Below, in pieces: positions 1-62,157 of a DNA stretch of 64,000 nt (its first letter is position 1; every line of letters begins with the position of its first letter). The stretch is from assembly GCA_964016885.1 (NCBI GenBank), contig OZ024742.1, forward strand, positions 79,794,001 to 79,858,000. Direction: 5' to 3'. Under the pieces are notes generated by a model that worked only from the letters and a program-made list of their open reading frames with translations, was not told the origin of the DNA and did no database searches. The translations under genes and the position numbers were made by a program. The DNA is from Eledone cirrhosa (Eukaryota).

Positions 1-419
1 TCTTTCCATCTCACTGCGCTTTGCATTCTAATTCCACATATATCAACTTTAACTTTCACCACTTCGAAGATCGGCAAATACAATTCCAGATGTTAGACAC
101 TGGAGGCATTTTCACTCTTTCTCCGGGTTTTTCTCTAGTCCACCGTGGAAGAGTTGTTTTGCTCTCAGATCAAGTGTGTGATAAGTTATGTTAGGTTAAG
201 CTGGTCATGGTTTGTTGTATATAAAGATAGCTCAGCTACGGCTTAAATCGGATGTAGAGCAATCAATGGGAGAAAGAAAGGAAGGAAGGAAACACCTTAC
301 CTATACCGGGTGGGAGTGTTAGTGGTGATATTGGCATATGTTTGATACGTTGAGAAATGAAAGATAAAGCTGATCCGAGATAGTAGTAGTAGTTGTTGTA
401 TTATTATTATTATTATTAT

Positions 420-2950
420 TACAGTTGCATTTATCTTGCTTTATGTTCATACGAGTTATCACAAAGTAACAACCAGTGACCTCAAGAGACAACAAGGTCC
501 ACCATGTACAAAAAAGAACATACATACACACACATGCATCTTTAGGTGTTTAGACTTGTGATGTACTTATATTGACAGAATCTTCCTTCGTATATGGGCA
601 GTTCCTATTAGTACAATCTTTTGTATTTCTCCTATACGTGGGTTCCCTGGGATTTGCGATAAGTAAGCATTAAACCCCTTAGGTATCATTCCTAGAGCGC
701 CTACAACCACTGGTATTGTTTTAGTTCTCAATTTCCACATTTTTTCCAATTTCTATCTCCAGGTCCTTATACTTGCTCAATTTTTCAAATGTTTTTATAT
801 ATACATTATTGTCTATTAGAACGGACATATCAATTAGCAGGCATACCCTCTTTTTAAAGTCCTTCAGTATTATATCAGGTCTATTTGCATCTATTTTTCG
901 GTCTGTTTGGATACTAAAGTTCCACAAGATTGAGATGTCATCTTTTTCAAGTATGGGAGGTGGTTGATGCTCCCACCAATTCTTTTGATGGGGCAGGTCA
1001 AAATACTTACACATTATCCAATGTATGTATTGTGCAGCTCTGTCATGCCTGTTTAGGTATTCGGTTGGAGCTATAGGACTGCACATTGAAATTATATGAT
1101 CAATGGTCTCTGGTTGTTTTTTACATACGGCATAATGGGTTGCATCCATTTTTTATTATGTTGGTGATTTTTTGTTGGCAGAGTCTGATCTTGTGCTGAT
1201 ATAGTCAGTCCTTCAGTCTCCGATTTCAGTCTAGAGGATGCCAACCACTGATGGGTTAAAGTTTTGTCAACATCAGGATTGTAAGTTCTTTCTGGGTATT
1301 TTCCATACAGATGCTTTTCTTGCCATTTCTTAGCCAGTTTCTGTAGCAATTCTTTCTTTGCAGTTACTTTTACCTGCTTTGCTTTTTCTGTGTTTTCCAT
1401 TTCAGCAGTAAATGGGACTTCTGAAATTTGTAGTCCATTACTGTATCTTTGTACATCTTTTGTAATGGAGTATGATCTTTTGATGCTTTCATGTGATTCC
1501 CTTAGATATGTAGATAATCCAATTGTTGCAGTTTTCAACGCAATATCTAACTCGATTAACCCACGTCCTCCTTCTTTCATAGGGAGATATATTCTATCTG
1601 TATCTGCCTTAGGGTGATGCATTCTGTGCATGGTTAAGAATTTTCTAATTTTTGTATCGAGCCTACGGGTCTCTGTACTTGACCAGTTGATGACATTGTA
1701 ACTGTAGATTACTACTGGTATGGCAAGCGTGTTTATGGCATCGATCCTATTCCTTGCATTCAATTCCGTTCTTAAGATTGCTCTTACACTGCGGTAACAT
1801 TCCTTCCTTATCCTTTCCCTCATTGTCGAGTGCTTGATTCCGTCTCCTTCACAAACACCTAGATATTTGTAAGTTTCCTCTTGATCAAGTTCTCTTATCA
1901 CATTCCTCCGCTCAAGATTAATGTCTGAACTTTTCAGCAGCTTTCCTCTGGTGAACGTTTCTTTGGCGCATTTATCTAGTACAAACTCCATTTTAATGTC
2001 ATCAATGACCTGCTCCACAGTGGATAATTGCCCTTGCAATTGTTCATCATTTTTTGCAAATAGTTTCAGGTCATCCATGTAGAACAAGTGATTAATGGCT
2101 TTGTCATAGACTTTATATCCATGTTTTGTTTCATTGAGCATTGGTATAAGTGCGATGCAGAATAAAAGCGGTGATAAAGTGTCACCCTGAAAAGTTCCAC
2201 AATTAATATTAACTTCTCCAGCTTCCAGTGATTTTGTTTCACTATTCAAAAGGAGTGTCGTTTTCCATGTCTTCATACTGAATGACAAGAACCTCCTGAC
2301 AACGGGAGATATTTTGAAAATCTCTAACCATTTTTCAATCCAACTGTGTGACAAACTATCGAATGCTTTTTTATAATCTATCTAAGCAATTGATAGATTT
2401 TTGTGTCTATTATGACAATCTTCCAGTATCATTTTGTAACCAAAAGCTGATCCTTACAGCCATATGAGCCTCGTTTACACCCTTTCTGCTCATTGGGAAA
2501 TAGGTAATTTGTTATCAGGTGGTCATGTGTATATTCAGTTAGGACTGATGTTAAAATTTTATACATTGTGGTCAAGCAAGTTATCGGTCTGTAATTTTTG
2601 GGATTGTTTGTCTCATCATTCTTCGGAAGCAGGAATGTAATATCGTTAACTAGCCATGATGGTATCTTTTCTGGCTCAAATATTTCATTGTAAAGTTGGG
2701 CTAACAGCTCATGAGACTCTATGAAGGCATTTATCCAAAAATTTGGTATTTTGTCTTTCGTGGGGATTTCCATTTGCTGGTTTTTCTAAGAGCCAAACGC
2801 AACTGTTCAACTGTTATATTTTCCCAAATGTGTTCCTCAAGGTGAGCTGTATCTTTCATTTGTATGTCTATCCATGGAGCATGTATATTATGAACTTTTT
2901 CTTCGGCCCAGATCTTTTCCCAGAATTCTTGCACTTCCTCCTTGTTTTAG
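420..2950 (-). mobile_element. R4/Dong-like non-LTR retrotransposon (RT + restriction-like endonuclease), 5'-truncated and disrupted
   Basis: Minus-strand ORF pieces contain RT motifs (NYRPITCL, EQKGCK, GTFQGDTLSPLLF, HLFYMDDLKL, YKYLG), a C/H knuckle (CKKQPETIDHIISMC) and an RLE motif (RHD...RPDII...IDMSV...KLSKY). The 3' end runs into (TAA)n at ~399-420, a target type known for Dong elements. Confidence 0.9.
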
Positions 2951-4078: not shown

Positions 4079-7000
4079 ATGACCTCACTCAGAATAGGCA
4101 GCATAAATGCGCATGGCTTGGGGTCGTCATGGAAGCAGAGCAACCTGCTCAACGACCTCAGGTCACTAAACATAGATGTAGTGGCCATCAGCAAGACCAG
4201 AATCTCCGAAGCACGGGCCTTCGCACCGATCTTCGGCGGCTACGATGTGTACGCATCTCCCAGCCGTCCCGGATCGGGGGGAGAAGTTGCTGTGCATTTT
4301 CGGAGAGGTTTGGATCTCGCCATACGGGCCATCTCCCTGGACCCAGAAGGTAAGTTGGTGGTGCTAGACGTGACCAGCTGAGACGGGCAAGCTTTCAGGC
4401 TAGTGGCCGTCTATGCCTCGACGGGAGCAGGGCGGCATGATTTCTTCCGGCGTTTGGAGACCTTTCTTGGAACGTCCCGCTCTTTAGTGTTAGTGGGCGA
4501 CTGGAACGGGATCTTAGATGCACGCTGGGATTGTGTGGGATTAGAGGATAGGGGGGAGGGTGCAAGAGTCTCACCAACATGCTCAGGCGCTTTGAACTCT
4601 CTGACAGGTACCGATTGGATTTCCCTAATGTACCAATGTGGACTTGGACAAATCTCATAGGGTCATCCAGATCATATCTAGATAAAGTATTTTGTAGGGA
4701 AATAGATAGGTCTAGCATAGGCTGTCCACAATTCAAGATAGTCAGCTACACGTACCACAAATTCGTGATCTGTGTGCTTGACTTAGATAGGCTTCATAGA
4801 CGAGGACCCGTCTACTGGAAGCTAAACACGTCCTTACCAGCGCGCAAGGCCTACAGAGACCGGATTAGCGAACTAGTTAAGCGGGCGTTGACGGGGGCCA
4901 TCGTCAACAACAAGTGATGGTTTGCTCTGAAAAGAGCAATTAGAATAGAGTCCATTAGGTTTAGTAAGGCTTTAGCAATAGAGAAACATAGAGCAGAGGG
5001 AGAATTAGTTAGAAAATTATACGAGGCGCTTTGCAAAGGCATCGCGACCGACGTACTTGCGGGGAAATTGGCCCTTGACCAATTCTTCAATGCAAAGCAC
5101 GATGGCTGCGTTGTCAGAGCTAGGGTGCGTGCTCTCAGACACGAGGGGACGAAAGCCATTCAATGGGCCCGAGTGTCGGAGGCGCGTCGTGGCAACAAAG
5201 CCACGATCCGGTCTTTGGTGGACCACGACGGGCGCATGCTACTCGATCCCGGGCAAATGTGTGAAGCTTTTCAGCGCACTTCGCTCAACTGTTCGGGGGC
5301 AGCGGCGGGCCGGATCGAGGGATGGACTTTAGTGTCTACCTCGACGGACTGCCGCGGCTCGCGGTCACTGAGGCGGAGTGTTGCGAAAAGCCCATAACAG
5401 TCGCTGAAGTACGGGAGGCAATGACTGGCTGCACAAGGTGTAAATCGCCTGGTTTGGATGGTCTGCCCTATGAACTTTACGTACAAATGACAGACTTGTT
5501 CGGAGGCCCATTGGCGGACGTCTACTACAACTGGCAACAGAACGGCAGAATTCCCAGCTCTGTGAGCCGAGGAGCGGTGGCGCTGCTGAGAAAGGATCCG
5601 AACAAGGGGGATAACATAGATAATTTCAGGCCCATAACTCTGCTAAACACAGAGTTCAAGATTTTGGCCAAGTTGCTAGCAAAGAGGTTTGCGCTTGTCG
5701 TTGGTGGTCTGGTGGGAGAGGCGCAGACATGCGCCATTCCCGGCAGATCCATCCACGACAACCTCCACCTCATGCGATACATCGTAGAGAAGGTAGCTAG
5801 GGAACCTGGCACGGGTGGGTCTGTGATAAATTTAGATCAGTCGAAAGCTTTCGATAGGGTCGACCATCGTTACCTAGCGGCAGTCCTGAGGGCGGCTGGC
5901 TTTGGGCCCGTCTCCAGAGGCTGGATCGCTGCCATGCATAGCGACATCTGCTCTGTGGTGAGAGTGAAAGGTCACCTTTCGGAACCGTTCAACATCATGC
6001 GCTCGGTCCGCCAAGGATGTCCCCTCTCGTCCCTCTTGTACGTATTGATTCTCGAGCCTTTACTGCACCAACTGGAGACGTTGAGGAGGGTCCCGCGCGA
6101 ACTAGAATGCGGAAGATCCGTGTCAGCATATGCGGACGATGTCTCCGTAGTGGTGTCGAACGCCAAACACATCGAGGCGATCGGCACTACACTGGGAGAA
6201 TACGAAGCCGTGACAGGAGCAATGATCAACCAGGGAAAGTCAGTGGGACTGCAGCTCGGCACCTGGAGAGGCAGGTCCATGCCGTCCAACAGCGTCGTCG
6301 GGCGCTGCATGGACGGACCTGTTAAATTGCTAGGGGTCTGGTTCGGTCCGGACCTCCAGACGGACAAAAACTGGGACGAGGTGACGAGCAGGATGGCTTC
6401 TCTCACCCTGAAAGCTCGAGCGGAGGTGGCTAACGCGTATATCGCGTCCGTCATCTACTACCGCCTGACCGTCGTACCTTGTCCTAAGCCCCGCCTGACT
6501 GCGCTGGAGCGTTTGCTCTTTCGCTTTTTGTGGAAGGGACGCGCTCCGATGGTCAGGCGGTCCATCTGCTCTCAACACCCGCTACGTGGAGGGCTGGGCA
6601 TGCCGTGGCTGATGATGCGCAGACACGCGCTCAGGCTACGACATCTCCACCTCTTCCTCGACGGTGATCAGGTGTGGTCGCCGTTTGCTAGACACTTCTT
6701 TCCCCAGCTCGTCTCCTTGACGGAGCTGCAGTCCTGGGTCCAGCGAAGACCGAGAGGGAGCGCTTGGAGACTGGAATGTCTTCAGGCGCTCACAGCTCTC
6801 GACCAATCGGGCAATGTGATCGGTGGAAACTCCACCTTGGCCTTCTATAGAGTATTAGTGGAGGGGAAGAGCGACGTCGTACTGGGAGAAACTCTAGGCG
6901 TCGACGAAAATCAACTAGCCAATCTCTTCGGAAGGACTTTCGGGCCGGGGCCTATGGACAACTTCCAGAAATCCCTGGCCTGGCAGTGCTACCGGGGAGC

Positions 7001-7469
7001 TTTGCCAGTTCGGGATAAACTCTACCGGCATGGAGGTCCCGTCAGCCGGGCATGTCCGAGATGCGCTCAGGGCGACGAAACCGTCCTGTACGCACTCGTC
7101 CAGTGTCCGAGCATGGCTGACTTGTGGGTTTATGTCGAACACCTGCTGTCACGTGTAGGACGGATCCAGCTATCAGCTGAGTCCATCGTGAGGATTGCCC
7201 CGCCCTCTTCCTTTAGCCGGGAAGGGCAGCCAGTTTTTATCTGTCTGGTGGCCATGGCAAAATAGATAGTATGGTGGACACGTTTGAAAGGGCTGAAGAC
7301 GAGCACTTACCTCTTCGGTGATGCCCTGATTAACTTTTTCAAATTTCATTTGAAAAGGAAAATCAGGGTAGAGAGGGAAGTGCTCTCTTCCCAGCATTTT
7401 GTTGAAAGATAGTTGAGAGAAGCAAGTATGGCCCGAGTGAATGGGCCTACTCTGAGTATGTGTCTGTAA
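4079..7469 (+). pseudogene. LINE ORF2 (APE endonuclease + reverse transcriptase), frameshifted
   Basis: Consecutive ORFs 4079-4381, 4403-4660, 4579-4917, 5068-5397, 5322-7265. RT motifs KSPGLDG, FRPITLLN, LDQSKAFDRV, VRQGCPLS, AYADD. Confidence 0.9.
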
Positions 7470-9451: not shown

Positions 9452-10500
9452 AAAATAACAGATTAAAGTTTAAGCAAAGAATCGCTGCTTTCACCCTTAA
9501 CGGTATCTTCTGAAACTAAAAAAGTGAATGTGAACGCAGAAATAAATATTAAAAAAAACGTTGCAACCGGAGGAAGACAGGAAGACGATACTTTGGTTCG
9601 TGGAAACGTTCCCTATACAAATAAGTAATGGTATAAACATAACATATACTTAGCTACCACATCAAGACGTAAAATATCCGCGTATAGTTCGTACTATCCG
9701 TTAGGGTATAATATGGGCCTGTAATACAGGAATGTTTTGAGCAATTTATGTTTACAAGCCGGAACTGCCTCAGATTTTTTGTTTAAGATGTGGTCTTTGA
9801 CGTAGAGTATTTCCCGGGCCTCAGCCGCGTAGAGGTCACATGTTTTTTTATTTCCGTTATACGATCTAGCCCTAGCTAGGATTTCCCAGTGTAACTTATA
9901 TTGAGTGTGGTTGTCTTTTAGACTCCAGATATAAGCTGAAAGTGACGTCATATTCCTTCTTAAAGGGTTAAGAAAAGAATGGGTGTGCATGTAAAGAGAC
10001 GTTGCTTGAATCTATTGGCGGTTAACCCTATGTAGGCCCAACGGGACGTGGGTGTTTTAACCTTACATTTGTAGACAATGTTACTAGAGAGGCATTTCCC
10101 GGATAAAGAGCAGTCAAACCGATTCCTACAATTTCAGTTAGTACTAGCTACAGGGTTGCACGTGTTCATTCGGCTAGGTAGCTAACTAAATTTGAAGCTG
10201 TGATGTTAGGAGTCATAGAGTAAGAAATTTTAATGGTATTTCAATTAAAAATTTTACTATATTTATGTGCTGGGGAAATGCTTCATAATAAGGGAGAGAA
10301 AGATGTTAGCTAATATTTATTTCTGCGTTCACAGATTGACTCTTTTAGTTTCAGAAGATCCCGATAAGGGTGAAAGCAGCGATTTATTGCTTAATCTTTA
10401 ATCTGTTATTTTAATAAATATTTGCTCTACGGTTCTTATATATTTGATATATATTTTTCCTTGTCGAGACCTCTTTGGATTTTAGTCTTCAAATTTATTA
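9450..10500 (-). mobile_element. Penelope-like element 3' fragment (GIY-YIG) with inverted 5' pLTR copy
   Basis: Minus strand reads NIVYKC..WAYIG..FKQR, then ORF 9694-9990 (LSAYIWSLKD..WEIL..CDL..E). 9450-9552 is the reverse complement of ~10312-10413. (TA)n on both sides. Confidence 0.85.
10347..10397 (+). ncRNA. Hammerhead ribozyme, variant core CAGAAGA (second copy on - strand at ~9467-9517)
   Basis: agttt-CAGAAGA-tcccgataagggt-GAAA-gca..tg-CUU. In the minus copy stem I agttt/aaact pairs fully. Confidence 0.6.
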
Positions 10501-10550: not shown

Positions 10551-12780
10551 AATGAATAATAACTGGTAGACATCATAAAAGGGTAATTTATTCCGTGTGT
10601 TTACAAGTGTTTACACGGTGGTACTACAGCCTGATTATGCTATGTGCAAATTCACAAGTACTTGCAGAACTCAAATATCCAATGCTGTGACCACTCGGCG
10701 GAGGTCACGGATCTCGTGGGAATTTACATAGCCCACATATTACATAGTAAATTTAGTAATCTACAGGGGGGGATATACAGAGATGACGGGCTCTTATTAG
10801 TTAATAACTTGAATAACCAAAATCTTGAAAGGCTACGGAAAAATATTAGAAAATCTTTTAGTGAACTGGGTCTAAAAATAACATACGAATACAATCTTAA
10901 AGTAGTAAACTTTCTGGACGTAACTCTTAATTTAAATACCGGACAGATACGACCCTTCCACAAGGTGAATGAGAACCTTACGTATATCAACTTTAACTCA
11001 AACCACCCACTCTCCATGATGAAATCAGTTCCCCGGAGTATTTCTCTTAGAATCTCTCGCCTATCGTCTAACTCTGATATTTTTAGTGAACACGCTGAAT
11101 ACTACAATAATGCATTAAGGAATGCCGACCACCGGGATACAATAGAATACATTGATAGGAATTTCCATAACACATATAGCTCTACACGAAATCAAGGAAT
11201 ACGTAACCGGGGGACTAAAATACAAGCACACACACACAGTACTACAGACATACTAATAATAGAAAATCACCACCAAATAAATCACGTTGTAGAAAGTATA
11301 TCTGGTACAATCCTATTTTTAATGCCTTGATTAGTACAAAACTATCTCTTTCATTCTTTAAGTTAATCAACAAACACTTCCCTAGTTCCCATAAATACAG
11401 CAACATTCTGAACTCTAAAACTATTAGATAATCATACTCCACGGCACCAAACCTTGAAGCATACATTAAAAAACTTAACTTAAGGCAATTAAACAACTCT
11501 ACAAAACAAAACATTTTAGTAACAGATGGGCAGAACGCAATATCTGCCTCCCAACCACTAAATGGGAGACGGGTATTACACAACCCACCTGTACCGCTAT
11601 CACAACCTATCCATGGTATACCCGCTACCCACAACAAAGAATGTAACTGCCATCTACCTGAAAGATGTCCATTGAAGAATGAATGCCTAAAGTCCAACAT
11701 TGTTTACCAATGCACGGATGAATCGAACGACCAGAAATGGTATTATATCGGATCTACCACCACCTCGTTTAAATCTCGCTGGTACCGTCATCGATTCTCA
11801 ATCAAACATCCTAATCACCGTTTTGTGACCACGCTCGCCAACAAGACCTGGCAACTCCGTGAACACAACCAACAGTTCACCTTAAAATGGGATATACTTT
11901 CCAGCGCAAGTGCATATCGGAGTGGATTGAAGTACTGCAGGTTATGTAACCTTGAGCTCTTTTACAAATTAAAATCCAAAAACAAACTACTTAACTATAG
12001 AATTGAATGATCATTATACTGCAACCACAAACTAAAAGCTAAATTCTCTCACTATAAAATAACTTAACATTCGAACCCGTAACTATAACACCGCTTTCTA
12101 TTAACCACCTTCTCTTCCCCCCACACTACAAGACAATACACTGCTTATCACTATAAATGGTAACTCAGTGCAATTCCTAGATTACTACAACAAACCCAAA
12201 GTTCACTCACCACACAAACTTCGTCTGTCCCTCTCTACCTCTCTCTCTACATCCATTACACTCTCTGTCGCTCGCCTTTGGCCTTCCTACCTCTCAACAT
12301 CTATGAACCTGCCCTCTGGGGCAATAAATAATTCCGACCTTAACTATCAACGCATCTCTCCAAAAGTAACCAGTATAATAAAACACCTACCATAACATTT
12401 TGATTAAGATATCTACAAACCACTCTCTCCTACTTCTCCAACCTCTGCATATCTTTCTCTCTCTCTCTCCCTCTCCCCTACTTTTCTCTCTTCCTTTTCT
12501 ACTCTATCTTCCCCAACAACCCCACTTAAGGGTATTTACATTGTACATTTTACCATTCTGCTCTGAGGAAACAGTGGTCACAGCATTGGATATTTGAGTT
12601 CTGCAAGTACTTGTGAATTTGCACATAGCATAACTAGGCTGTAGTACCACCGTGGAAACACTTGTAAGCACACGGAATAAATTACCTTTTTATGATGTCT
12701 ACCTGTTATTATTCATTCTTTATATACACTCCGGAATACAGAAGGATCAGGAACTAAGTTTCTTCAACAATTCTTCCATA
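10548..12780 (+). mobile_element. Penelope-like (Naiad-like) element, 5'-truncated in RT, with inverted pLTR fragment at the 5' end
   Basis: RT (SAEVTDL, GGIYRDDGL, VNFLDVTL, SNHP), linker ECNCHLPERCPL, GIY-YIG (NIVYQC..WYYIG..FKSR). 10548-10695 is the reverse complement of ~12573-12720. Confidence 0.92.
12559..12670 (+). ncRNA. Type I hammerhead ribozyme in pLTR, long stem II insertion
   Basis: tgct-CTGAGGA(12563)-acagtggt...accaccgt-GAAA(12655)-C-actt-GUA-agca; AATAAA at 12676. Confidence 0.8.
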
Positions 12781-32291: not shown

Positions 32292-34925
32292 TTTTGGATT
32301 CTTTCGAACATGAAAATGATAACCGGAATCAAATTTACAAACGGAAGGAAAAACGAACTGCAACGAGATATTAAAACTCTACTCAACAACCTAAGGAATA
32401 CCAAAGGAATTATCATAAAGGCAGACAAAACTTCGAATCTATACACCCTGGATGTAGAAACATATAACAATTTTATACGTAAGGAATTACATAGGAAATA
32501 CAAAAAAACAAACGCAACTACACTAACCAACATTAATAACGCAGCATGTGATATTGTTAGGAAACTGAAAATTGACGACAGAACGGTACCCCTATCCCCA
32601 GCTACACCGACTTTTAATCTGAAGGACCATAAGGATAACTTCGATACTAACCCTAAAATTAGATTAATATGTCCTTCAAAGTCCGATATAGGTAAGATTA
32701 GTAAGTACATATTAGATCGTATTATCCCCCAAGTTAAGGCTAGGGTAAATATTAAATTATGGGGTAATACTCATCAGGCAATAAGATGGTTCAATAACAT
32801 TAGGGACAAAAACAAATCTTCTTTTATTCAATTCGATATAGATGAATACTATTCCTCTATTTCACCCGAAACCCTGCATAAGGCCCTCTCTTTCGCTAAG
32901 ACTAACTCGGACCTCACAAACGAGGAAATTAATATTATACTTGGAGCTAGACGCACAGTAGTGCACTTTGAAAATAGTTATTGGGTCCGCAGGGATAGAC
33001 CCTCGGAATTCGACATTACGATGGGTTCTAATGATTCGGCGGAGGTCACGGATTTGGTTGGGATCTATATAGCCCATAGACTCCAGAGCGAATTTACGGA
33101 CCTCCACGGCGGAATATACCGCGACGATACACTTCTATTAGTCAAGAATATGAACAAACAAAACCTAGAAAGGCGACGTAAAAACATTAGGAAACTTTTC
33201 TTAGAACTAGGGCTTAATATTACCTTTGAACACAATCTTAAGGTGGTCAACTTCTTGGATGTTACCTTCAACCTTAATAACGGTAATATAGAGCCATTTC
33301 ACAAACTTAATGAAAATCTTAAGTACGTTAATGTAAAATCGAACCATCCTCATTCCATTATTAAATCTATCCCTAAAAATATATCCATAAGGATCTCCCG
33401 ACTGTCGTCTAATTTGCAGACCTTCAACGAGCATGCTGAATATTATAATGACGCACTTAGAAAAGCTGGTTACTGCGAGAAAATTGAATATCTAGACGAT
33501 AACCACATAAGTACTATGAATAAAACACATCTAAGTCGAACTAGTATTGCACCACACACACACACATCAATAGGCATACTAACAGGTGCAAACCAGCAAA
33601 TAGAGTCAGACGTAGAGAGTACATATGGTATAACCCCGTGTACAATTCTTCTATTAGCACTAAGATTATCTCACAATTCTATACACTAATCAATAAACAC
33701 TTTACAACTTCACATAAATACTATAAAATCTTTAACTCGCGCACCATTAGACCCTCATACTCCACTGCACCTAACATAGAACAACTAATTAGAAAACTCA
33801 ACTCAGCAATACTGAATAAGTACATCCCTAATGACTCAGCGCACCAGCATAGCAATATGCAACGCACTAACACGCAACCGCAACCCCACCAAACTATCCA
33901 GGATTCTACTGCAAAACATAAAAATAGTTGTAACTGCACCATACCAGGTACGTGCCCACTGAATAACCAGTGCCTAGCATGCAATATTGTCTACCGGTGT
34001 ACAATAAATTCCGGGACCAACAAATGGTATTACGTCGGATGTACCGCAACTTCTTTCAAGGCTCGCCTATACCAACATCGATCTTCGATCAGGCACGAGA
34101 AAATGCGCTCCGTAACAACCCTCACCGATAAAGCCTGGCAGCTTCGGAGGAACAATCAAGCGTTCTCCCTTGATTGGCAAATTATTGCAGCTGCGCCTGC
34201 ATATCAGCAAAATCATCGATTCTGCAAGTTATGCAATTTAGAGATATACTGCATTTTAACGTCGGTAAACAAACTTTTGAACAGCAAAATTGAACTTTCT
34301 CTATACTGTAACCATCGTTTGAAAACGACTTTTTCTTTTTTTAAATGCATATAATGTTACCTTTTTACACCAACGTTTGCAAATTTCTGTCTTATATGTT
34401 TATACACTAGATATGGCTTTCTATAATAATAGTACTAAACACTGTTTTTCTGGACCCCTTTAGAAATAACCTGCTACTATAATAGCCCTAATAACTTGTC
34501 TGTGACATTGTACCACTTTGAGCCCTCTAACTAAATTTTGTCCGAACAACACCACTAGAAGTATCTACTTCCCAGCCAACCTTAGCACGCCTCATTAAGC
34601 TAACTGCTGCCAAAACATTCTCTCTTCACAATCTCTACTAGTCTGACAGTCTTAAACCCTAAGACTCCCTCCACCTTACTCACTTCCCTCTTCCCTTCTC
34701 TTCCTACCTCCTTCTTTATCTTTTATCTAGTGTATAAAATATTTTCATATCATTCTAATACAAAGGTCTGATGACATGGTGTGTTGGCTTACAGTGTACT
34801 TTCGGTTTTTGATAATATTTGTGTATTATTCAAATAGCGAGGTATAGGTAACTCATACACTATAGAAACAATTGTTACCTAATAAATTCTATATACCCGC
34901 ATTTCCATTTCGTAAATTTTTTTCT

Positions 34926-39250: not shown

Positions 39251-39492
39251 CTTTTTGAAAAGCATAAGAACTGTGAAACCGATAAAGGAAACAAATGAAT
39301 ATCACAATGAATATACCAGATGTGAGGAAAACCACAAACCCTCCATCTAAATTCTACTTTCGAAAAGCAGAAGAACTGCGAAACCGGTAAAGGGACCAAA
39401 TAAATATATATTTAAAAAAAAGAAGACTTTTCCTTATACTTTCTCTCGTGTAGGACACCTCGTTTTTTTTTCATTTTGTAAAAAAACCTCAC

Positions 39493-39500
<8 letters not shown>
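39251..39500 (+). mobile_element. Small non-coding unit with two tandem minimal HHR motifs (U3-A8 core)
   Basis: TTGAAAA(39255)..GAAAccgAUA-aagg and TCGAAAA(39360)-gcag-aagaa-ctgc-GAAA-ccg-GUA-aag, 105 bp apart, between (TA)n tracts. Confidence 0.65.
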
Positions 39501-42531: not shown

Positions 42532-44260
42532 AAATTGAAACAGTGAAGAATAACATGGTCAACAGTATAAACAAGGAAATTTATTTACAGTCTAACATTT
42601 GTTTCTATGATGGAGTTCTCTGACGAAATGATGGAAACGCTGTCAAAACTGAAAAACACCTGTGAATAACGGCTGAAAAAATAAATTCGGCTACGAAATA
42701 AATAAATTATTAAATTGATGAGGTTTATGATTACAGATATAGAAACTAGGTATATTATTTATTTAGGGTTTATATACTAAACAAATTCTATTAAAAGGTG
42801 TGAAAATGTATTATTAAAATAAAATAAAGTAAAATAAAATGATTTATAATCGTAGAAGACAATATAATGTCATAGTTTGTTTAAATAGAGTGTAATTGAA
42901 AAATGTGAGAAAAATGTGTGAAGAGATATTTATGTGAAAAAATATATATATTTGTAGAAGAAAATAAATAAGAGTAGTCAAACCATGTCAAAAATTAAAA
43001 TATTACTATTACAAATTATAGATAATATATAAAACAAATAGAGATTACATATAAACAAAATTATATATGTGGGAAAACTATTTAAATATTTAAATATTAA
43101 TTTAATCCACAAGTAAATAAAGGAAAATGTTAGTGAGAAAAAAGGATATAAAGAAACATTAAATATGAACTATTTAAATAATATTTTGTATCACCAAGTA
43201 GATAAAGGAATTTGCTAGAGTGATTTAAAGCGTAGAAGACAATATAACTGTCATAGTATGTTTAAAACTTTGTAGAATGTACTGCAATATGCGAGAAAGA
43301 AAGAGTGTAAAAAGATATTTGTGTAAAAAAAATATATATGTGTAAAAGATTTAAACCTTATTCGTGGAATAAGATATAGGGTATTAGCTGTATACTTTGT
43401 GAAATGACCCAAGAGATTTATGGATGCAGAGAGCAAGTAATTCGGTGCGTCTATTTATTATAGAGTTAATTCGAGATAATGGTACATTTTTCAGCTAGAC
43501 ATAAATTACAAGCCCTAGATATCGAAGCATTATGGAGGAACATTGCATATTTTACACCAAGAAATTTTGTAATTAATGTTTTTGTCTTTTAAGGATCAGA
43601 TGTGTTCTGAGAGTGCAGTGTTTGTTCTTTTAAGTGGATATTTAAATGAGAAAGAATGGTTATATAGTCTTGCCTTAAAAGAAGTAGAAGTAGAGCCAAT
43701 GTAGGTATAAGAATTGGTACTAGTTAGCACCTTACATTCATATACTAGATTTTTATTGAGACAGAAATTATTAAGAGGACATTTAGTTCTATTAGGGCAG
43801 TTGCATTTACGATTAAGATTATTAACAGAGTTATTTGCAAGTGGCCCAGGATTAATTATAATAGGAATTGTAGTGGTGGAATTAGATAAAGGAAGTGCTA
43901 ATGTTTCCTGATTTTGATTAAGTTACGTTTGACGTCGTATTTATATTTAAGTTATCTTGTCTAGAGTGTACATTGACGTCGGGCCTTATAGTGTTATTAT
44001 TGTGACGCTCAAGGTTGGATGCATATGAGTTATTATTTAATATTTTAGTATTATGTTTTGAGATAATGTTAGAAATGTTGGAAGTGGTGGAATATGAGAT
44101 GTTAATGGTATGCTTATTAAACATCTTACTATAAATATGTGAAGGAGGGAAGCAATTATCTAACGCCCTAAAAAATAATTTAGGGATATTACTAATAAGT
44201 GAAAGAGAGAATGGAGCGTTGTACCAAATGAAATTTTTATATCTAGGTCTACATTTCAGT
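42530..44260 (-). mobile_element. Penelope-like element 3' fragment (thumb, CxCx5C linker, GIY-YIG, AT-rich 3' region)
   Basis: ORF 43918-44292 (IWYNAPFS..FPPSH.Y.KMFNK.TI.ISYST). Downstream on - strand: CNCPNRTKCPL..CL, YTYIGSTSTSFKARLYNH. Confidence 0.85.
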
Positions 44261-55726: not shown

Positions 55727-56163
55727 CGGGAGAGATGACCCCTTAGCCTAGTTCATTTACTTATTTACTTATTTACTTATTTCTTTATTTCTTTCTTTAC
55801 TTCTTTCTTTCTTTCTTTATTTATTTATCTGCCAAACAATAGCTAGAGACTTAGGTCGTAGAACTTGCTTTACTTTTTTCTTTACACTTATTCGCTTTTC
55901 TTCACTCTCAGTATTTTTTCTTTCATATATACTTTTAACCCTCATTGTTCTACCTACCGTTCCGACCTCCCCCCCTCCCCCTCCCCATTATCTTCTTTGA
56001 CCTCATGCCCAGCTGTAGCTGGCACTACCAACGCTTGATTGGGTCTACTCCACCCCCTCCCCTCTTTCTCCTACTGGCAGGTTTAGCCACCATCTCCCCT
56101 ACTAATTTGCAATCACAGAATTACTACTGACTTTTGACAATCGCTTTGACCATATATGGAATT

Positions 56164-56257
56164 ACCCCTTGAGAAGATCGGCTATTTAAATACCAGGATA
56201 AATTTTCATTTAGTCCAGAATTAGCCGTCGAAACGGCTTGAGCTCAGCCGTCGGGGT
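56164..56257 (+). ncRNA. Full type I hammerhead ribozyme with compensatory U3-A8 core
   Basis: acccc-TTGAGAA(56169)-gatcggcta...tagccgtc-GAAA(56230)-cggct-tgagctc-agcc-GUC-ggggt. All three stems pair. Confidence 0.8.
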
Positions 56258-56399
56258 CTTACCGGTTCCTATTACCCACTCTACTACCCCAAGTATTGAG
56301 TACTTTGGTGCGTTATGGTCCACCTAGTTCCTTACCACATTTCCTTCGTTATATATATATATATATGGCCATCCAAAATCACCGGCAGAGATGACCCCT

Positions 56400-56795
56400 T
56401 AGCCTTTGTCAAGGCAGAATTCTAGGAGAAGGAAAACTCTGATATAACACCTGCAACCCTCATGGTATCCAATGATGTTGACTTGTTCTTCTTTTTGGTA
56501 AATATCATCTTGGTTAAGAGAGTGCGACTGGCTTTGTGCAGTGCCTTTGTTCACTATAAAAGCTTCACGGCACACAGGCATTGCTTTATATCTGGAGATC
56601 TCTCTGCACTTGTCGTCACATCGTACCATGGGCCCAGCACTATGTGTCAGTAATTGTCACAAGTGTAGTGTTTGTACCAGAGTTTTCAAGTCGCTAGCTG
56701 GACTAAAATGTCACACACGTTCAGCGCATTCGTAGGGGTTCTCCTACATGGATATAAAGTAGTGGCCGTACTCGAAAACGAGTTGGCAGCCACCA
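56400..56795 (+). mobile_element. Probable LINE (RTE-type) 3' end with C2H2 finger
   Basis: CSVCTRVFKSLAGLKCHTRSAH followed by a short tail. No upstream domains, so the assignment is inference. Confidence 0.45.
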
Positions 56796-57020
56796 TATAT
56801 ATATAAAATACCCGACATGTCTTTGTATTGTCCCCTTTTTTGTGCGCCCTTGAGGCAAATAAAGAAATCTATCTATCTATCAAACAATCTATCTATCTAT
56901 CTATCTATTTTTCAACCTAGATATCTACCTATATACGTATATATATATAAATAAATATATATATATATGTGTGTGTGTATTTATGTATAAATGAATGTAT
57001 GTATATATATATATATATGT

Positions 57021-57096
<76 letters not shown>

Positions 57097-57232
57097 GTGA
57101 GGGTTTTTTTTTTACAAAATGAAAAATAACCGAGGTGTCCTACACGAGTGGAAGTATAAAGAAAAAGGGATGAAATCGAAAATGCAACTGAAGTCTTATT
57201 TTTTGTTAAACTCACCTTTTTTTCTCAACTCA

Positions 57233-57270
57233 CCTTTTGAAAAGCAGAAGAACTGCGAAACCGGTAAAGG
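57233..57270 (+). ncRNA. Minimal hammerhead, U3-A8 core (family of 39251)
   Basis: cctt-TTGAAAA(57237)-gcag-aagaa-ctgc-GAAA(57257)-ccg-GUA-aagg, AATAAA ~6 nt downstream. Confidence 0.75.
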
Positions 57271-57339
57271 AACCAAATAAATATATATATTTTAACAAAA
57301 AATAAGACTTCAGTTGCATTTTCGATTTCATCCCTTTTT

Positions 57340-57388
<49 letters not shown>

Positions 57389-57529
57389 CATTCATTTATA
57401 CATAAATACACACACACATATATATATATATTTATTTGTATATATATACGTATATAGGTAGATATCTAGGTTGAAAAATAGATAGATAGATAGATAGATA
57501 GATAGAAAGATAGATTGTTTGATAGATAG

Positions 57530-60500
57530 ATATATTTCTTTATTTGCCTCAAGGGCGCACAAGAAAATGGGACAATATAAAGACATGCCGGGGATTTTAC
57601 ATACAGTCGTGTAAAAAATGTAAAACAAACAATTACAAGAATCGAAATCCCTAATAGGGGGAAGCACCACAAATGGATTGTTTAATACCCCGTCGATAGA
57701 ACAACCCTCAACTCCAGGAGCGTGTTGTGCAAGTGCTCCTTCCTTCCTTTTGCTCTCTTCTTTAACCTACAGGCTTATAAACAGAGAGCCAAATCACTCG
57801 GGCCATTTTCGCTTCATTCACCCACCTTTCAGTAAATTTACTGGGGTGCACTGCCTCTCTCTCCACTCTAATTCTTCTTCTAAAGTGATACTTAAAGAAG
57901 GGAATCGATTGTTGTCCGGAGAGAAAGGCATCTGTCCTCAGTCCTCTCAATCTCGTCCACCATATAACTTTTTTCACCATAACCACTGTACAGAGAAAAC
58001 CGAATCTCTTTCCTTTTTGAAAAAGACTGGCGGTTTGATCCTGACTATGGACTCGACATTCAACTGTATTTGTCCCATACGCGACAGCAGTTGTTCTGCA
58101 TAGTTCCCGGGCAGTGTACAATTGAGTGCAGGGCTGTTTCAATGTCCTGCGCGCATCTTGGATACGTCCTCTTGGAAGGATCTCTGCCGAGGCGTCCGTG
58201 CCTGTAGATCTTGTCACGAACCGGTAGAGCTCCTCGGTAGCACTGCCAGGCTAGGGACCTCTGGAAGTTGTCTTTAGGTCCCGGGCGGAAAGTCCTACCA
58301 AACAGACTGGTGAGCTCATCTTCTTCGACCCCCAGAGTCTCTCCGAGCATGTCATCGCCTTTGTAATGTACATCCCTCTATAGAATGTTGAAGTGGAGTC
58401 TCCACTAATTGCTGTGCCCACTTACCAGAGAACTGTGAGCGCCTGAGCGCATTCAATGTGCCAGGCGCCCATCGTTTTCGGTCGTTTCTTGACCCAGGAC
58501 TGCAGCTGCGTCAGCGAGACAAGCTGCGGGAAAGCCTGTCTCACAAACGGTGCCCACACCGGTTGGGGATCGGTGAGGAATACCTGGAGATGCTTCAGCA
58601 TCAGCGCATGTTTGCGCATTATCAGCCACGGCATTCCCAGCCCTCCGTTGGAGGGGTGCTGACAGCAGACGTATCTCCTCACCAGCGGAGCCTGCTTCTT
58701 CCACAGAAATTGGAAGAGCATGCGTTCCCTCTTGGCGAGGTGTTCATGGGGACAAGGCACGACAGTCAAGCGGTAGTAGATGACGGACGCTATGAAAGTG
58801 TTCGCCACCTCCGCTCGACCTTTTAAGGACAGTTTGCACTCTGTCCACTTCTGGGTGAGCGCAAACACCTTGACCGTGACCTCGTTCCAGCTTTTCTCCA
58901 CCGGGAGGTCTGGACCGAACCAGACCCCGAGCAATTTCACCGGTCCGTCCGTCCAGCATCCAACGACGCTGTCGGACGTCATCGGTTTGCTTCTCTACGT
59001 ACCGAGTTGCAAACCGACAGACTTGTCCGGATTTAGTTTTGCTCCCGTCAGCGTTTCGTATTCTTTCAGTAAGTTGCCGATCACGCCGATTTCCGAGGTG
59101 CTCGACACCATTACCATTACGTCGTCGGCATAAGCCTACGCCGCTTTGCGCAGTCGCGATTCTAGAGGGATGCCCTGCAACAGCTACAATTTCCGCAGTA
59201 GTGGCTCTAGAGTCAATACAAACAGAATGGAGGAGAGAGGGCACCCCTGTCGAATGGAACGAATGATTGCAAACGGCTCCGATAGGTAGCCGTTTACCTT
59301 GACCCTCGAACAGATGTTGGTGTGCATCGCCTCGATCCAGCCTCTGAAAACGGGACCGAAACCGGCCGCCTTGACAACCGCTTCCAAGTATCGGTGGTCG
59401 ACCCTATCAAATGCCTTAGACTGATCCAAATTGATCAGATCCCCACCGAAGCCGGGTGTACTACCCACCCTCTCTATGATGTATCGCATGAGGTGGAAAT
59501 TGTCGTGTATGGACCCGGTCGGGATTGCACAAGTTTGGGCTTTCCCTACCAGGTTCTCGACGACAAGCGCCAACCTCGTCGCTTGCCCCTTGGCCAAAAT
59601 CTTTAACTCTGTGTTGAGGAGAGTTATGGGCCCGAAGTTGTTAATTTCGTCCCCCTTGTTCTCGTCTTTCCTGATCAGCGTTACTACGCCCTTGCCTGCA
59701 GAACTGGGAATTCTCACGTTCTGCTGCCAATTGCAGTAGACGGCTTTGAGGACGCCAGAGAACAAGTCCGGCATGCCTATGTAAAACTCATAGGGTAGAC
59801 CATTTAGACCGATTGACTTACATTTCCCGCAGCGGCCCAGAGCGTCCCGTATCTCAGTGTCCATGATCGGTCTTTCACAGAACTCGGCGTCCGTGTTCGA
59901 GAGACGCAGCAGGCCGTCTAGGTATGAACTAAAGTCCATTGCCCCGTTCGGCTCACCGTCGTTCTGCACAAACAGTCGCGCAAAGTGCTGCTGAAAGGCC
60001 GCGCACATTCGCTTGGGGTCAAGAAGCACGCGTCTTTGGTCTTACAAAGAACGAATCGTGGACTTGTTGCCTCTGCCACTCGGGCCCAGCTGACAGCTTT
60101 GGCTCCTTCGTTTCCTAGAGCACGTGTTTTGCTTCTGACCACGCAGCCTTCGTGTTTCGCGTCGAAGAACTGGTCCAGTGGCGTTCTCGACGCTAACACA
60201 CTAGCCGTGTTGCCACTTCTAAGTGCCTCCTCTACCTTGGCTACTAGTTCTCTTTCTATTTTGTTTTTCTCTAAGGCTAACTCTCTGCTAAACCCTATCG
60301 ATTCTACTCTAATTGCTTTCTTGAGCGAGTACCACCATCTATTGTCGACGATGGCTCCCGTTAACTGCTGTTTGACTAGTCTACTTATCCGTTCACTGTA
60401 AGCTTTACGTGCCGGCAACGAAACGTTCAGCTTCCAGTACCGGGTCCCTGTCTATGTGTTCTATCACGGTTGACTAAGCAGACGACTAATTTGTGACCTG

Positions 60501-62157
60501 AGTAGGCAACCATGTGCATTCGTAGACAGCTTAACATCTCCTTGTCCCTTTCTCTAATGAAGAACCTATCTAAATACGATCTAGATGTTCTGCTGCAGTT
60601 TGCCCACCTCTACTGTGGTGCAGTCGGGAAATCCAGTCGATACCTATCGGCCAGTTGGAATTGGCCGATTAAAGTTTTGAGGCTGTTGCACCCCCCTCTA
60701 CTGGGACATGCTCCCACATTGTCCCACCGTGCATCTAGGATACCATTCCAGTCACCCACTAGAAGTAAGGAGCGATATGTTCCCAGAAAAGACTCTAGAC
60801 GCTTAGAGAAGTCTGGCCGTGATTGCGATTGCCCGGTCAGGGCATAAACGTCCACCAGTCTGAAGGCTCCACCTCCAATACTATTCACGTCTAGGACTAC
60901 CAGTCTACCCTCCGGGTCCAAGTGTACTTGCTGTACTTCGCGTCCAGGTTCTTCCGAAACATGACAGCCACTCTACCTCCACCTGCTGGCTGACAGAGAG
61001 ATGTGTAGATCTCAAAGTCGTCGAAGATGGGGGTTAGTTGCTGCCTGTTGTGGATTCTGGACTCGGTGATGGCTATCACATCCATACCATGTGACCTAAG
61101 GTCGTTTAAAAGTTGGCCCTGTTTCCAGAGCATCCCTAGGCCACGCACATTCACGCTTCCAACTCGTAAACTAGCCATGTTGGTGAAAAAGAGTTGGAGA
61201 AAAAGGACGAAAAGGTGCACTTACCTTTTCCTTTCCTGGAGATCGGGTTGTTCAATGTCCATTTGGGTGTTGGAGGGGTGTTGTTTGGGGTGGGGAAACA
61301 TTTTAACAGGATGCGGTTGATGGGTTTCCGGAAGGGGTTGCCCACGTCCTGCGAAAATTTATTTTTCAGGTCACTATAGGTCTCCATAGAGACCCTTATA
61401 AGATTAAGGTGTGGAGACGATGAAGTCCTTCGAACTGTCTCTTCTTTAATATCGAGGGGTGAGTTAAAACCCACCCTTGTCTTCGAAAGTTACAAATGTT
61501 CTCCCTTGCTGGAGCATATATCTTGCATTGGAGATGTCAAGATTTATAAAATCTTTTTTTTTATACACTGTTTCAGCGAAATACATTTTTATTTTGTGTG
61601 GTGTTGCTGTTGTTGTTATCGTTGTTAGGCTCGATGTTAGAAATCTCAATTCCTTGACGAGGTGAAACTTTATGTGTAGATGTATCTATGGAGTTGTTGA
61701 TGTTGTCTTTTTCATGTGTATGTATGTTAATGGGTTTAATTCCTGTGTTTTCCTGTGTGTTATTGTTATTTTTCTCCGCTTCGACAGTAGAAATTTTAAA
61801 ATCTTCAAGTGGTAATATTTTGTTCTCTTTGTTGACAGTCGTATCTATGGAGACGTCCATAGTAGCAGAAGCAGATGTAACGTTAATATCTGCCTCTCTA
61901 CCTCTCTTCTCTCTGTCGACGTTCTCTAGCGTTCTTTCCGAGATATTCATGTTTTATAGTTGGCAAAATTTGATATTTTAAAACAATTTTAAAATTAAAT
62001 TTTCGCCCCTAAAGGGGCGAAAAATTGGATTACGACCCAGCTGAAAATTCAGCTTGGGGGTTAATCTACAAGATGTTATGGTTTTTCAAAAAATTAGTTC
62101 GGTTTTTTGCATAGAAATTAACAAAAAGGCTTACCGGCGATGTTCCACGCGTCAGGC
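57530..62157 (-). mobile_element. Tx1/L1-like LINE, apparently near full length, disrupted
   Basis: ORF2 from ATG 61178 (SVNVRGL, VGDWNG; RT PITLLN, LDQSKAFDRV, IRQGCPLS, AYADD), clearly homologous to 4079-7469. Short ORF1 remnant ~61950-61220, 5' hairpins ~62000-62060, polyA signal ~57540, (GATA)n flanks. Confidence 0.92.

What the first reader, a model, noticed from the sequence alone, without database searches (positions are those of the whole stretch)
56164..57270. Hammerheads with compensatory U3-A8 catalytic core in two unrelated families
Seen: cores UUGAGAA (56169) and UUGAAAA (57237, 39255; UCGAAAA at 39360) replace CUGANGA, while stems I-III, GAAA and GUC/GUA are intact at 56169 and 57237. 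Established: C3-G8 is a Watson-Crick pair in the active fold and U3-A8 can substitute. Inference: the paired change in independent families argues for selection on cleavage rather than decay, and CUGANGA-only searches would miss these elements.
Basis: partly seen in the sequence, partly recalled or inferred. Interest (0 to 1): 0.75.

Follow-up and report, generated by a model that had tools for sequence, protein, structure and literature searches.

The report
Penelope hammerheads with breakable U-A pair
The two motifs are hammerhead-shaped RNA ends of two abundant Penelope-type jumping genes whose U-A core pair is a variant already in print; one family made an estimated thousand or more copies while that pair was broken and later regained it, so self-cutting (predicted, untested) is likely helpful but not essential for jumping.

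Summary
56164-56257 and 57233-57270 are type I hammerhead motifs in the pseudo-LTRs of truncated Penelope-like elements (PLEs): family A is Hydra-clade, family B Neptune/Nematis-type. U3-A8 is the family state, not decay. The young A subfamily has 2,132 U3-A8 of 2,157 copies; B has about 6,600 copies, with 17 non-U3 and 10 non-A8; neither has a C3-G8 copy. U3-A8 is published (Perreault 2011; Schistosoma PLEs, Cervera 2014). Strict selection on cleavage is only partly supported. Along family A's lineage the core and stems are conserved (6/52 positions changed versus 19/37 in loop II). But trees of pLTR and ORF show U3-A8, then a C3·A8 mismatch stage, then U3-A8 again. That stage holds 37 of 100 listed copies of 3,443 middle-aged ones, with the ORF under purifying selection. 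A8 did not follow position 3. No copies pile up at the cut site, and A's sister family has a fixed U4A core. The scan noted U3-A8 PLE hammerheads, a mismatched subfamily and U4A before, in this and other genomes. Cleavage is untested.

The parts
55747..56351 (+). 5'-truncated copy of family A (Hydra-clade PLE): 3' UTR/pLTR and tail, followed by (TA)n; no ORF left
   Evidence: 95-97% identical over about 600 nt to other loci; full units of about 3.53 kb carry an RT + GIY-YIG-type ORF ending 1,076 nt upstream of the core; 3' ends cluster at +98..101 and +20/22 from the cut site
56164..56257 (+). Hammerhead A, type I: core U3-A8 (56169/56174), long stem II, 5-bp stem III, predicted cut after C17 (56252)
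   Evidence: 2,132 genomic copies with exact flanks
57089..57210 (-). Inverted arm of the family B insertion (tail side, no hammerhead)
   Evidence: 57155-57210 is the exact reverse complement of 57291-57346; 57090-57165 matches the tail of the 39360 copy
57214..57346 (+). Short pLTR fragment of family B (Neptune/Nematis-type PLE), ending at the +80 end before (TA)n
   Evidence: full 4.66-kb unit with RVT_1 and GIY-YIG in L085
57233..57270 (+). Hammerhead B, minimal type I: core U3-A8 (57237/57242), palindromic ACCGGU stem III, predicted cut after A17 (57266), predicted to fold for cutting only as a dimer
   Evidence: 6,602 genomic matches
39251..39288 (+). Degenerate family B hammerhead (U3-A8 kept, stems I-III mismatched)
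39356..39500 (+). Older family B copy with U3-A8 plus a U4C change, continuing to the +148 tail end
   Evidence: 1 of 23 family B cores in the non-targeted set has U4C

Best explanation
Both motifs are type I hammerhead sequences in the pseudo-LTR of truncated copies of two protein-coding Penelope-like retrotransposons, with U3-A8 as the inherited family state; they are predicted to cut their RNA after GUC (A, alone or paired) or GUA (B, only as a dimer), and selection likely keeps the fold and core while treating the 3-8 pair, and so probably cleavage, as helpful but dispensable. Shown: PLE identity, family consensus, conservation of core and stems along family A's lineage, and a U3-A8 > C3·A8 > U3-A8 history with A8 fixed. 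Inferred: that U3-A8 arose from C3-G8 at least three times in this genome (Hydra A, Hydra C, Neptune-type B plus its sister); that the two 3' ends are the two reverse-transcription starts on uncut RNA; that the return to U3 reflects weak selection for the pair. Predicted, untested: cleavage itself, and low activity of C3·A8. The window copies are ORF-less fragments and are probably inert unless read through.
For: PLE identity; Hydra motifs DKT, CxCX5C, CxxC/CxH, RW(R), (TA)n targets. Consensus: young A 2,132 U3-A8, 17 non-U3, 8 non-A8, 0 C3-G8; B 6,602 matches, first 100 all UUGAAAA, 10 non-A8 all U3, 17 non-U3 all A8. Across families the pair covaries: in 1.2 Mb of evenly spaced tiles 25 C-G, 11 U-A and 1 U-C of 37 hits, against 1 hit in reversed sequence. 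Fold under selection: 0/10 invariant core, 0/8 stem I, 3/17 stem II (one A-U to G-C double change), 3/17 stem III versus 19/37 loop II positions changed over five subfamily stages (Fisher p 7.8e-5). Pair dispensable: 37 of the first 100 of 3,443 middle-aged A copies are C3·A8 and none has G8 (counted by eye; 6 of the first 30 by script). The pLTR tree with positions 3 and 8 masked is a ladder, C3·A8 monophyly is rejected (p-AU 1.5e-9), and the ORF tree repeats the order. dN/dS between early and late C3·A8 copies is 0.22-0.31. A's sister Hydra family has U4A in 21 of 24 tile copies. No 5' ends at the cut site: A 0/98, B 0/29, U4A 0/64. Ribozyme-dead mutants of an Anolis PLE insert normally in vitro (PMC11167929).
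Against: No cleavage assay here. In one saturation-mutagenesis study of a type III hammerhead only the G3-C8 swap rescued the core, so U3-A8 may be slow (PMC9901934). C3·A8 might keep some activity, in which case cleavage could still be needed. Reversion to U3 could be mutation bias, and a small young clade went back to C3·A8 again. The node for the return to U3 has only 44% support in the ORF tree (100% in the pLTR tree), and the entry node 71% in the pLTR tree (95% in the ORF tree). Trees use 44 and 19 copies of thousands, and 15 of 59 candidates were dropped as too short. The tile descriptor is incomplete: it missed the C3·A8 copy in tile L163, so its lack of mismatched cores is not absolute.
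Confidence: 0.62

Rival explanations
1. The fold is kept as a handle (RT/EN binding, promoter or template-start signal) and cleavage is irrelevant; U3-A8, C3·A8 and U4A are relaxed, poorly cutting cores.
For: Prolific C3·A8 stage and U4A sister family; no cut-site ends; family A 5' ends pile at -31..-46, inside the motif; HHR mutants insert normally in vitro.
Against: U4, G5, A6, A9, GAAA, U16.1 and C17 never changed along A's ladder; families show almost only Watson-Crick 3-8 pairs, and that pair forms in the active fold (PMC3884650).
Confidence: 0.2
2. One reading: cleavage is required, U3-A8 is a strictly maintained compensatory pair, and mismatched copies are either still active or were moved in trans by paired masters.
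For: Across families only C-G and U-A are common; A returned to U3; U3-A8 has been shown active in vitro according to PMC3088659.
Against: C3·A8 copies occupy several successive nodes of the master lineage, carry the ORF with C3·A8 in both inverted arms (L328, L329), and show dN/dS 0.22-0.31 within that stage.
Confidence: 0.13
3. The U > C > U history is an artefact of recombination or gene conversion between subfamilies.
For: Tandem and inverted PLE insertions allow template switching; support at single nodes is 44-71%.
Against: Two regions more than 1 kb apart give the same order; AU test p 1.5e-9.
Confidence: 0.04
4. Chance match or decay of CUGANGA copies.
For: Folding z-scores are modest; no Rfam hit.
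Against: 0 C3-G8 among 2,157 young A copies and about 6,600 B copies; controls give 0-1 hits.
Confidence: 0.01

Closest known systems
Minimal hammerheads of metazoan PLEs, including the U3-A8 variant of Schistosoma mansoni Cercyon elements (Cervera and De la Pena 2014, PMC4209133; parts 1-2 of 4 read)
   Same: Type I motif in the pLTR, short stem I, palindromic minimal stem III, solo and head-to-head copies, U3-A8 core. Family B fits fully.
   Different: Family A has a 5-bp stem III that folds as a monomer and a 37-nt structured loop II. A mismatched C3·A8 stage and its reversion are not described in the parts read.
Hydra-clade PLEs (Craig et al. 2021, PMC8557442; section 11, passages, File S1 Hydra sheet and File S2 read)
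   Same: DKT, CxCX5C linker, CxxC/CxH around the EN E/N, no GxKF, (TA)n insertion, 3' hammerhead.
   Different: All 25 Hydra families with a motif in File S2 have C3-G8 and small motifs; family A has U3-A8, a long stem II and a 3.5-kb unit.
Natural U3-A8 hammerheads (Perreault et al. 2011, PMC3088659; section 8 read)
   Same: Covariation of C3-G8 to U3-A8 seen in nature.
   Different: The section read does not tie them to PLE subfamily histories.
PAc (Poseidon of Anolis; Frangieh et al. 2024, PMC11167929; passages read)
   Same: Two internal RT starts define the tail; hammerhead in the pLTR; cleavage not needed for insertion in vitro.
   Different: Canonical C3-G8 core and a 30-40 nt tail; here the tails are about 80 nt (A) and 68 nt (B), and the evidence is genomic.

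Membership tests
Type I hammerhead ribozyme | Three helices around YUGANRA / GAAA / NUH in type I order | tested here: met
   (for B, stem III only as a dimer)
Type I hammerhead ribozyme | Watson-Crick pair at 3-8 | tested here: met
   U3-A8 in both window copies; not met in the C3·A8 subfamilies of A
Type I hammerhead ribozyme | Conservation and compensatory change in core and stems | tested here: met
   core 0/10 changed; A-U to G-C double change in stem II
Type I hammerhead ribozyme | Self-cleavage at N17 | not testable with these tools
   no assay; no RNA holder listed
Type I hammerhead ribozyme | Match to an Rfam hammerhead model | tested here: not met
   a search result, not a defining trait of PLE motifs
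Penelope-like element (EN+) | RT followed by C-terminal GIY-YIG, pLTR with tandem/inverted copies and a tail | tested here: met
   Pfam RVT_1 (28.3 bits, just under cut-off) and GIY-YIG for B, no Pfam hit for A
Hydra clade (family A) | DKT, CxCX5C, RWK-like motif, CxxC/CxH, no CCHH cysteine pair, (TA)n targets | tested here: met
   (RWR in place of RWK)
Hydra clade (family A) | Placement in a tree with published Hydra RTs | not tested
   no reference sequences were used; the tree holds own-genome copies only
Neptune/Nematis (family B) | GxKF, DKG, CX2-5CxxC linker, cysteine pair inside GIY-YIG | tested here: met
Neptune/Nematis (family B) | Neptune versus Nematis by RT phylogeny | not tested
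   no reference sequences were used
Non-LTR retrozyme | Short non-coding tandem repeats with one hammerhead per unit | tested here: not met
   A and B units are 3.5 and 4.7 kb and coding

The most novel reading that the evidence does not exclude
The genome holds a dated fossil record of a ribozyme's catalytic base pair being broken and repaired: an autonomous Hydra PLE lineage transposed more than a thousand times with a catalytically crippled C3·A8 hammerhead and then reverted to U3-A8, while its sister spread with U4A. This would be in vivo evidence that PLE hammerhead cleavage is dispensable yet favoured. U3-A8 cores would also prefer C17 to avoid a U3-A17 trap.
Probability: 0.45. Interest if true: 0.65.

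Novelty: new member of a known kind. Interest (0 to 1): 0.43.

Why it matters
U3-A8 itself is known. What PLE hammerheads are for is still open. Family A supplies natural alleles (U3-A8, C3·A8, rare U3·G8) in one sequence background, each with a copy count, so cleavage rate can be set against transposition success. About 30% of the descriptor hits with a U4 core in the tiles are U3-A8 (11 of 37), and the commonest family seen there has U4A, so CUGANGA descriptors undercount hammerheads here.

Tried and rejected
Rfam scans: only microsatellite-driven miRNA hits and noise. The repeat finder was swamped by microsatellites. No RNA holder listed. Cut-site scars, a lead from earlier notes, were not found in A, B or the U4A family. 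A C3-G8 ancestor inside family A was not established: the oldest subfamily is U3-A8 (about 90 of 100 listed rows, 5 U3·G8, 1 C3-G8, counted by eye; 27 U-A and 3 U-G of 30 by script). Family D's link to a Hydra ORF is doubtful because it is a 593-595 bp tandem unit starting where the shared 3' region ends, so the AU test that included it was set aside and redone for A+C only. The first copy tree was distorted by inverted arms and was redone. The upstream flank count (106/146) may be inflated by alignment, so only loop II was used for the test. Coding constraint on the motif's 3' half was rejected: the young subfamily has a stop in loop III and subfamilies differ by a 2-nt indel after stem I. 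Papers not held: PMC5785218, PMC1986816, PMC2271363, PMC4008931; they may report PLE core variants and U3-A8 or C3·A8 kinetics. Supplements of PMC4209133 and PMC3088659 were not read.

Full report
Observation. Motif A (56164-56257) has a 5-bp stem I, core UUGAGAA, a long stem II with a 37-nt loop, GAAA, a 5-bp stem III and GUC; its minimum-energy fold is the hammerhead junction (z -1.67). Motif B (57233-57270) is minimal, with a loop-less ACCGGU palindrome and GUA; stem III appears only when two molecules are folded together (-22.5 versus 2 x -7.5 kcal/mol). A also folds as a dimer through its near-palindromic stem III (-67.3 versus 2 x -25.4). The 39255 copy has broken stems and the 39360 copy has U4C. 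A descriptor free at 3, 7 and 8 finds 4 motifs in the window and 1 in 30 shuffles. Rfam finds none.

What they belong to. Both are ends of truncated Penelope-like elements in a 3.0-Gb animal genome. Longer copies carry an RT followed by a GIY-YIG-type domain, with the motif repeated at unit length (3.53 kb for A, 4.66 kb for B) and in inverted 5' arms. Family A has DKT, CxCX5C, CxxC/CxH and RWR and ends in (TA)n, the Hydra signature of Craig et al.. Family B has GxKF, DKG and CX4CxxC, so Neptune/Nematis type. The two RTs are about 24% identical where they align. Copies end at two fixed points: +20/22 and +98-101 from the cut site in A, +80 and +148 in B. By analogy with PAc (PMC11167929, passages) these are likely the two reverse-transcription starts on uncut RNA.

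U3-A8 is the family state. Exact-flank patterns give 2,132 U3-A8, 17 non-U3 (all A8), 8 non-A8 (all U3) and 0 C3-G8 for young A. For B they give 6,602 matches with the first 100 all UUGAAAA, 10 non-A8 and, with a slightly wider pattern, 17 non-U3, with no C3-G8. The decay alternative is refuted. In 120 evenly spaced 10-kb tiles the strict descriptor gave 25 C-G, 11 U-A and 1 U-C of 37 hits, against 1 in reversed sequence; the looser one gave 30, 13 and 4 others of 47. The descriptor missed some real copies, including a C3·A8 one in L163. Clustering gave about 7 U3-A8 and 19 C3-G8 families.

Independent origins. All 25 Hydra families with a motif in Craig's File S2 have C3-G8. In a protein tree of 23 own-genome Hydra copies, A's sister family has C3-G8 (with U4A), and joining A with the other ORF-linked U3-A8 Hydra family, C, is rejected (p-AU 0.00015 on 17 of the 23 rows). 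B and its Neptune-type sister share UUGAAAA (20 of 21 anchored copies, the other a register shift). At least three gains are therefore inferred, assuming C3-G8 is ancestral and the motif travels with its ORF.

Prior art. Perreault et al. reported natural U3-A8 and cite earlier in vitro activity (PMC3088659, section 8). Cervera and De la Pena found U3-A8 in Schistosoma PLEs and about 1,300 hits with a dedicated descriptor (PMC4209133, parts 1-2 of 4). Against automatic activity, pairwise mutagenesis of one type III hammerhead rescued only the G3-C8 swap (PMC9901934, passages). Also seen: PMC6765202, PMC3884650, PMC6155905, PMC7229834 (passages) and bioRxiv 10.64898/2026.07.22.740005 (part 1 of 5). 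Seven searches showed no paper describing a mismatched-core stage in a PLE lineage, but four key papers were not held.

Selection: the fold yes, the pair not strictly. Family A has older subfamilies. Among 3,443 middle-aged copies, 37 of the first 100 listed are C3·A8, 63 U3-A8 and none G8, which extrapolates to roughly 950-1,600 mismatched copies. The oldest subfamily is U3-A8. With positions 3 and 8 masked, a 446-column tree of 44 copies (15 of 59 dropped as short) is a ladder: old U-A, 8 C3·A8 copies over successive nodes, U-A again (support 100), young U-A, and a small young C3·A8 clade of 5. Holding the 8 together is rejected (p-AU 1.5e-9). A tree of 19 ORF pieces repeats the order, though the return node has 44% support. 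L328 and L329 have C3·A8 in both inverted arms and 277 and 612 codons of ORF; dN/dS between early and late C3·A8 copies is 0.22-0.31, so those masters were likely autonomous. Contigs of run X1 show C at 56169 in 24% of depth and no change at 56174 above 10% (run type unknown and possibly not independent). Meanwhile the invariant core (0/10) and stem I (0/8) never changed, stem II shows a compensatory double change, and loop II changed at 19/37 positions. No 5' ends fall at the cut site (0/98, 0/29, 0/64); about 60 of A's 98 5' ends lie at -31 to -46 instead.

Mechanism. Shown: identity, consensus, conservation, the excursion. Inferred: the element is copied from uncut RNA, the hammerhead likely trims read-through or tandem transcripts, and the benefit is enough to conserve the core and restore the pair but too small to stop a mismatched master. 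Predicted: cleavage of A as monomer or dimer and of B as dimer only. A side pattern: 6 of 7 U3-A8 families have C17 against 4 of 19 C3-G8 families (p 0.005, families not independent). This fits avoidance of a U3-A17 pair like the proposed C3-G17 trap (PMC3884650); family B is the exception and may be slow.

Verdict. Real, more than chance, and a new member of a known kind. The U3-A8 core is published. The break-and-repair history is the part of value, and earlier scan notes had touched the mismatched subfamily and U4A on other pieces of this genome. Interest 0.43.

Noticed in passing
window 10348-10396 (+) and 9468-9516 (-); L101, L112, L218-L237: Hydra family sister to A (about 51% protein identity) whose hammerhead core is CAGAAGA (U4A, C3-G8 kept) in 21 of 24 tile copies; the commonest hammerhead family seen in the tiles.
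   Followed up: partly
window 25408 (+), 18757 (-), 34768 (+): Canonical C3-G8 hammerheads of other families; the one at 34768 has a very long stem II and lies 422 nt after a Hydra ORF at 32397-34345.
   Followed up: partly
L119 2380/2975, L025 706/1301, L150 3568, L203: Family D: U3-A8 hammerhead in a 593-595 bp tandem unit with no secure ORF link, possibly a non-LTR retrozyme.
   Followed up: partly
L140, L173; L208 3181; L002 881/1199; L238-L257: Further U3-A8 families: Hydra family C, two small families without ORF link, and a Neptune-type sister of B with a weak stem I.
   Followed up: partly
family A copies, window equivalent 56207-56222: About 60 of 98 non-targeted copies begin 31-46 nt upstream of the cut site, at the end of loop II; possibly a transcription start inside the ribozyme or an RT stall.
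   Followed up: partly
G000:C4:213654054, C2:163370742 (L313), C18:16127329: Three copies of the oldest A subfamily with G8 (one C3-G8, two U3·G8) share a loop II variant; possible trace of a C-G > U·G > U-A route.
   Followed up: no
window 55731-55749 and 56387-56405: A 19-nt direct repeat flanks the family A copy, with 20 extra nt between the (TA)n tail and the right copy; not a simple target-site duplication.
   Followed up: no
window 56800-57043 and 57343-57603: The family B insertion sits at the centre of a 90%-identical inverted repeat of another element.
   Followed up: no
window 5265-7265 (+), 58400-61500 (-), 1092-2381 (-): Non-LTR retrotransposon ORFs (RVT_1, zf-RVT); Hydra ORF remnants at 9715-10267, 10695-12046 and 43557-44244.
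   Followed up: no
L085 3684-4583: Family B has a separate 300-codon reading frame upstream of the RT ORF with no Pfam match above cut-off.
   Followed up: no
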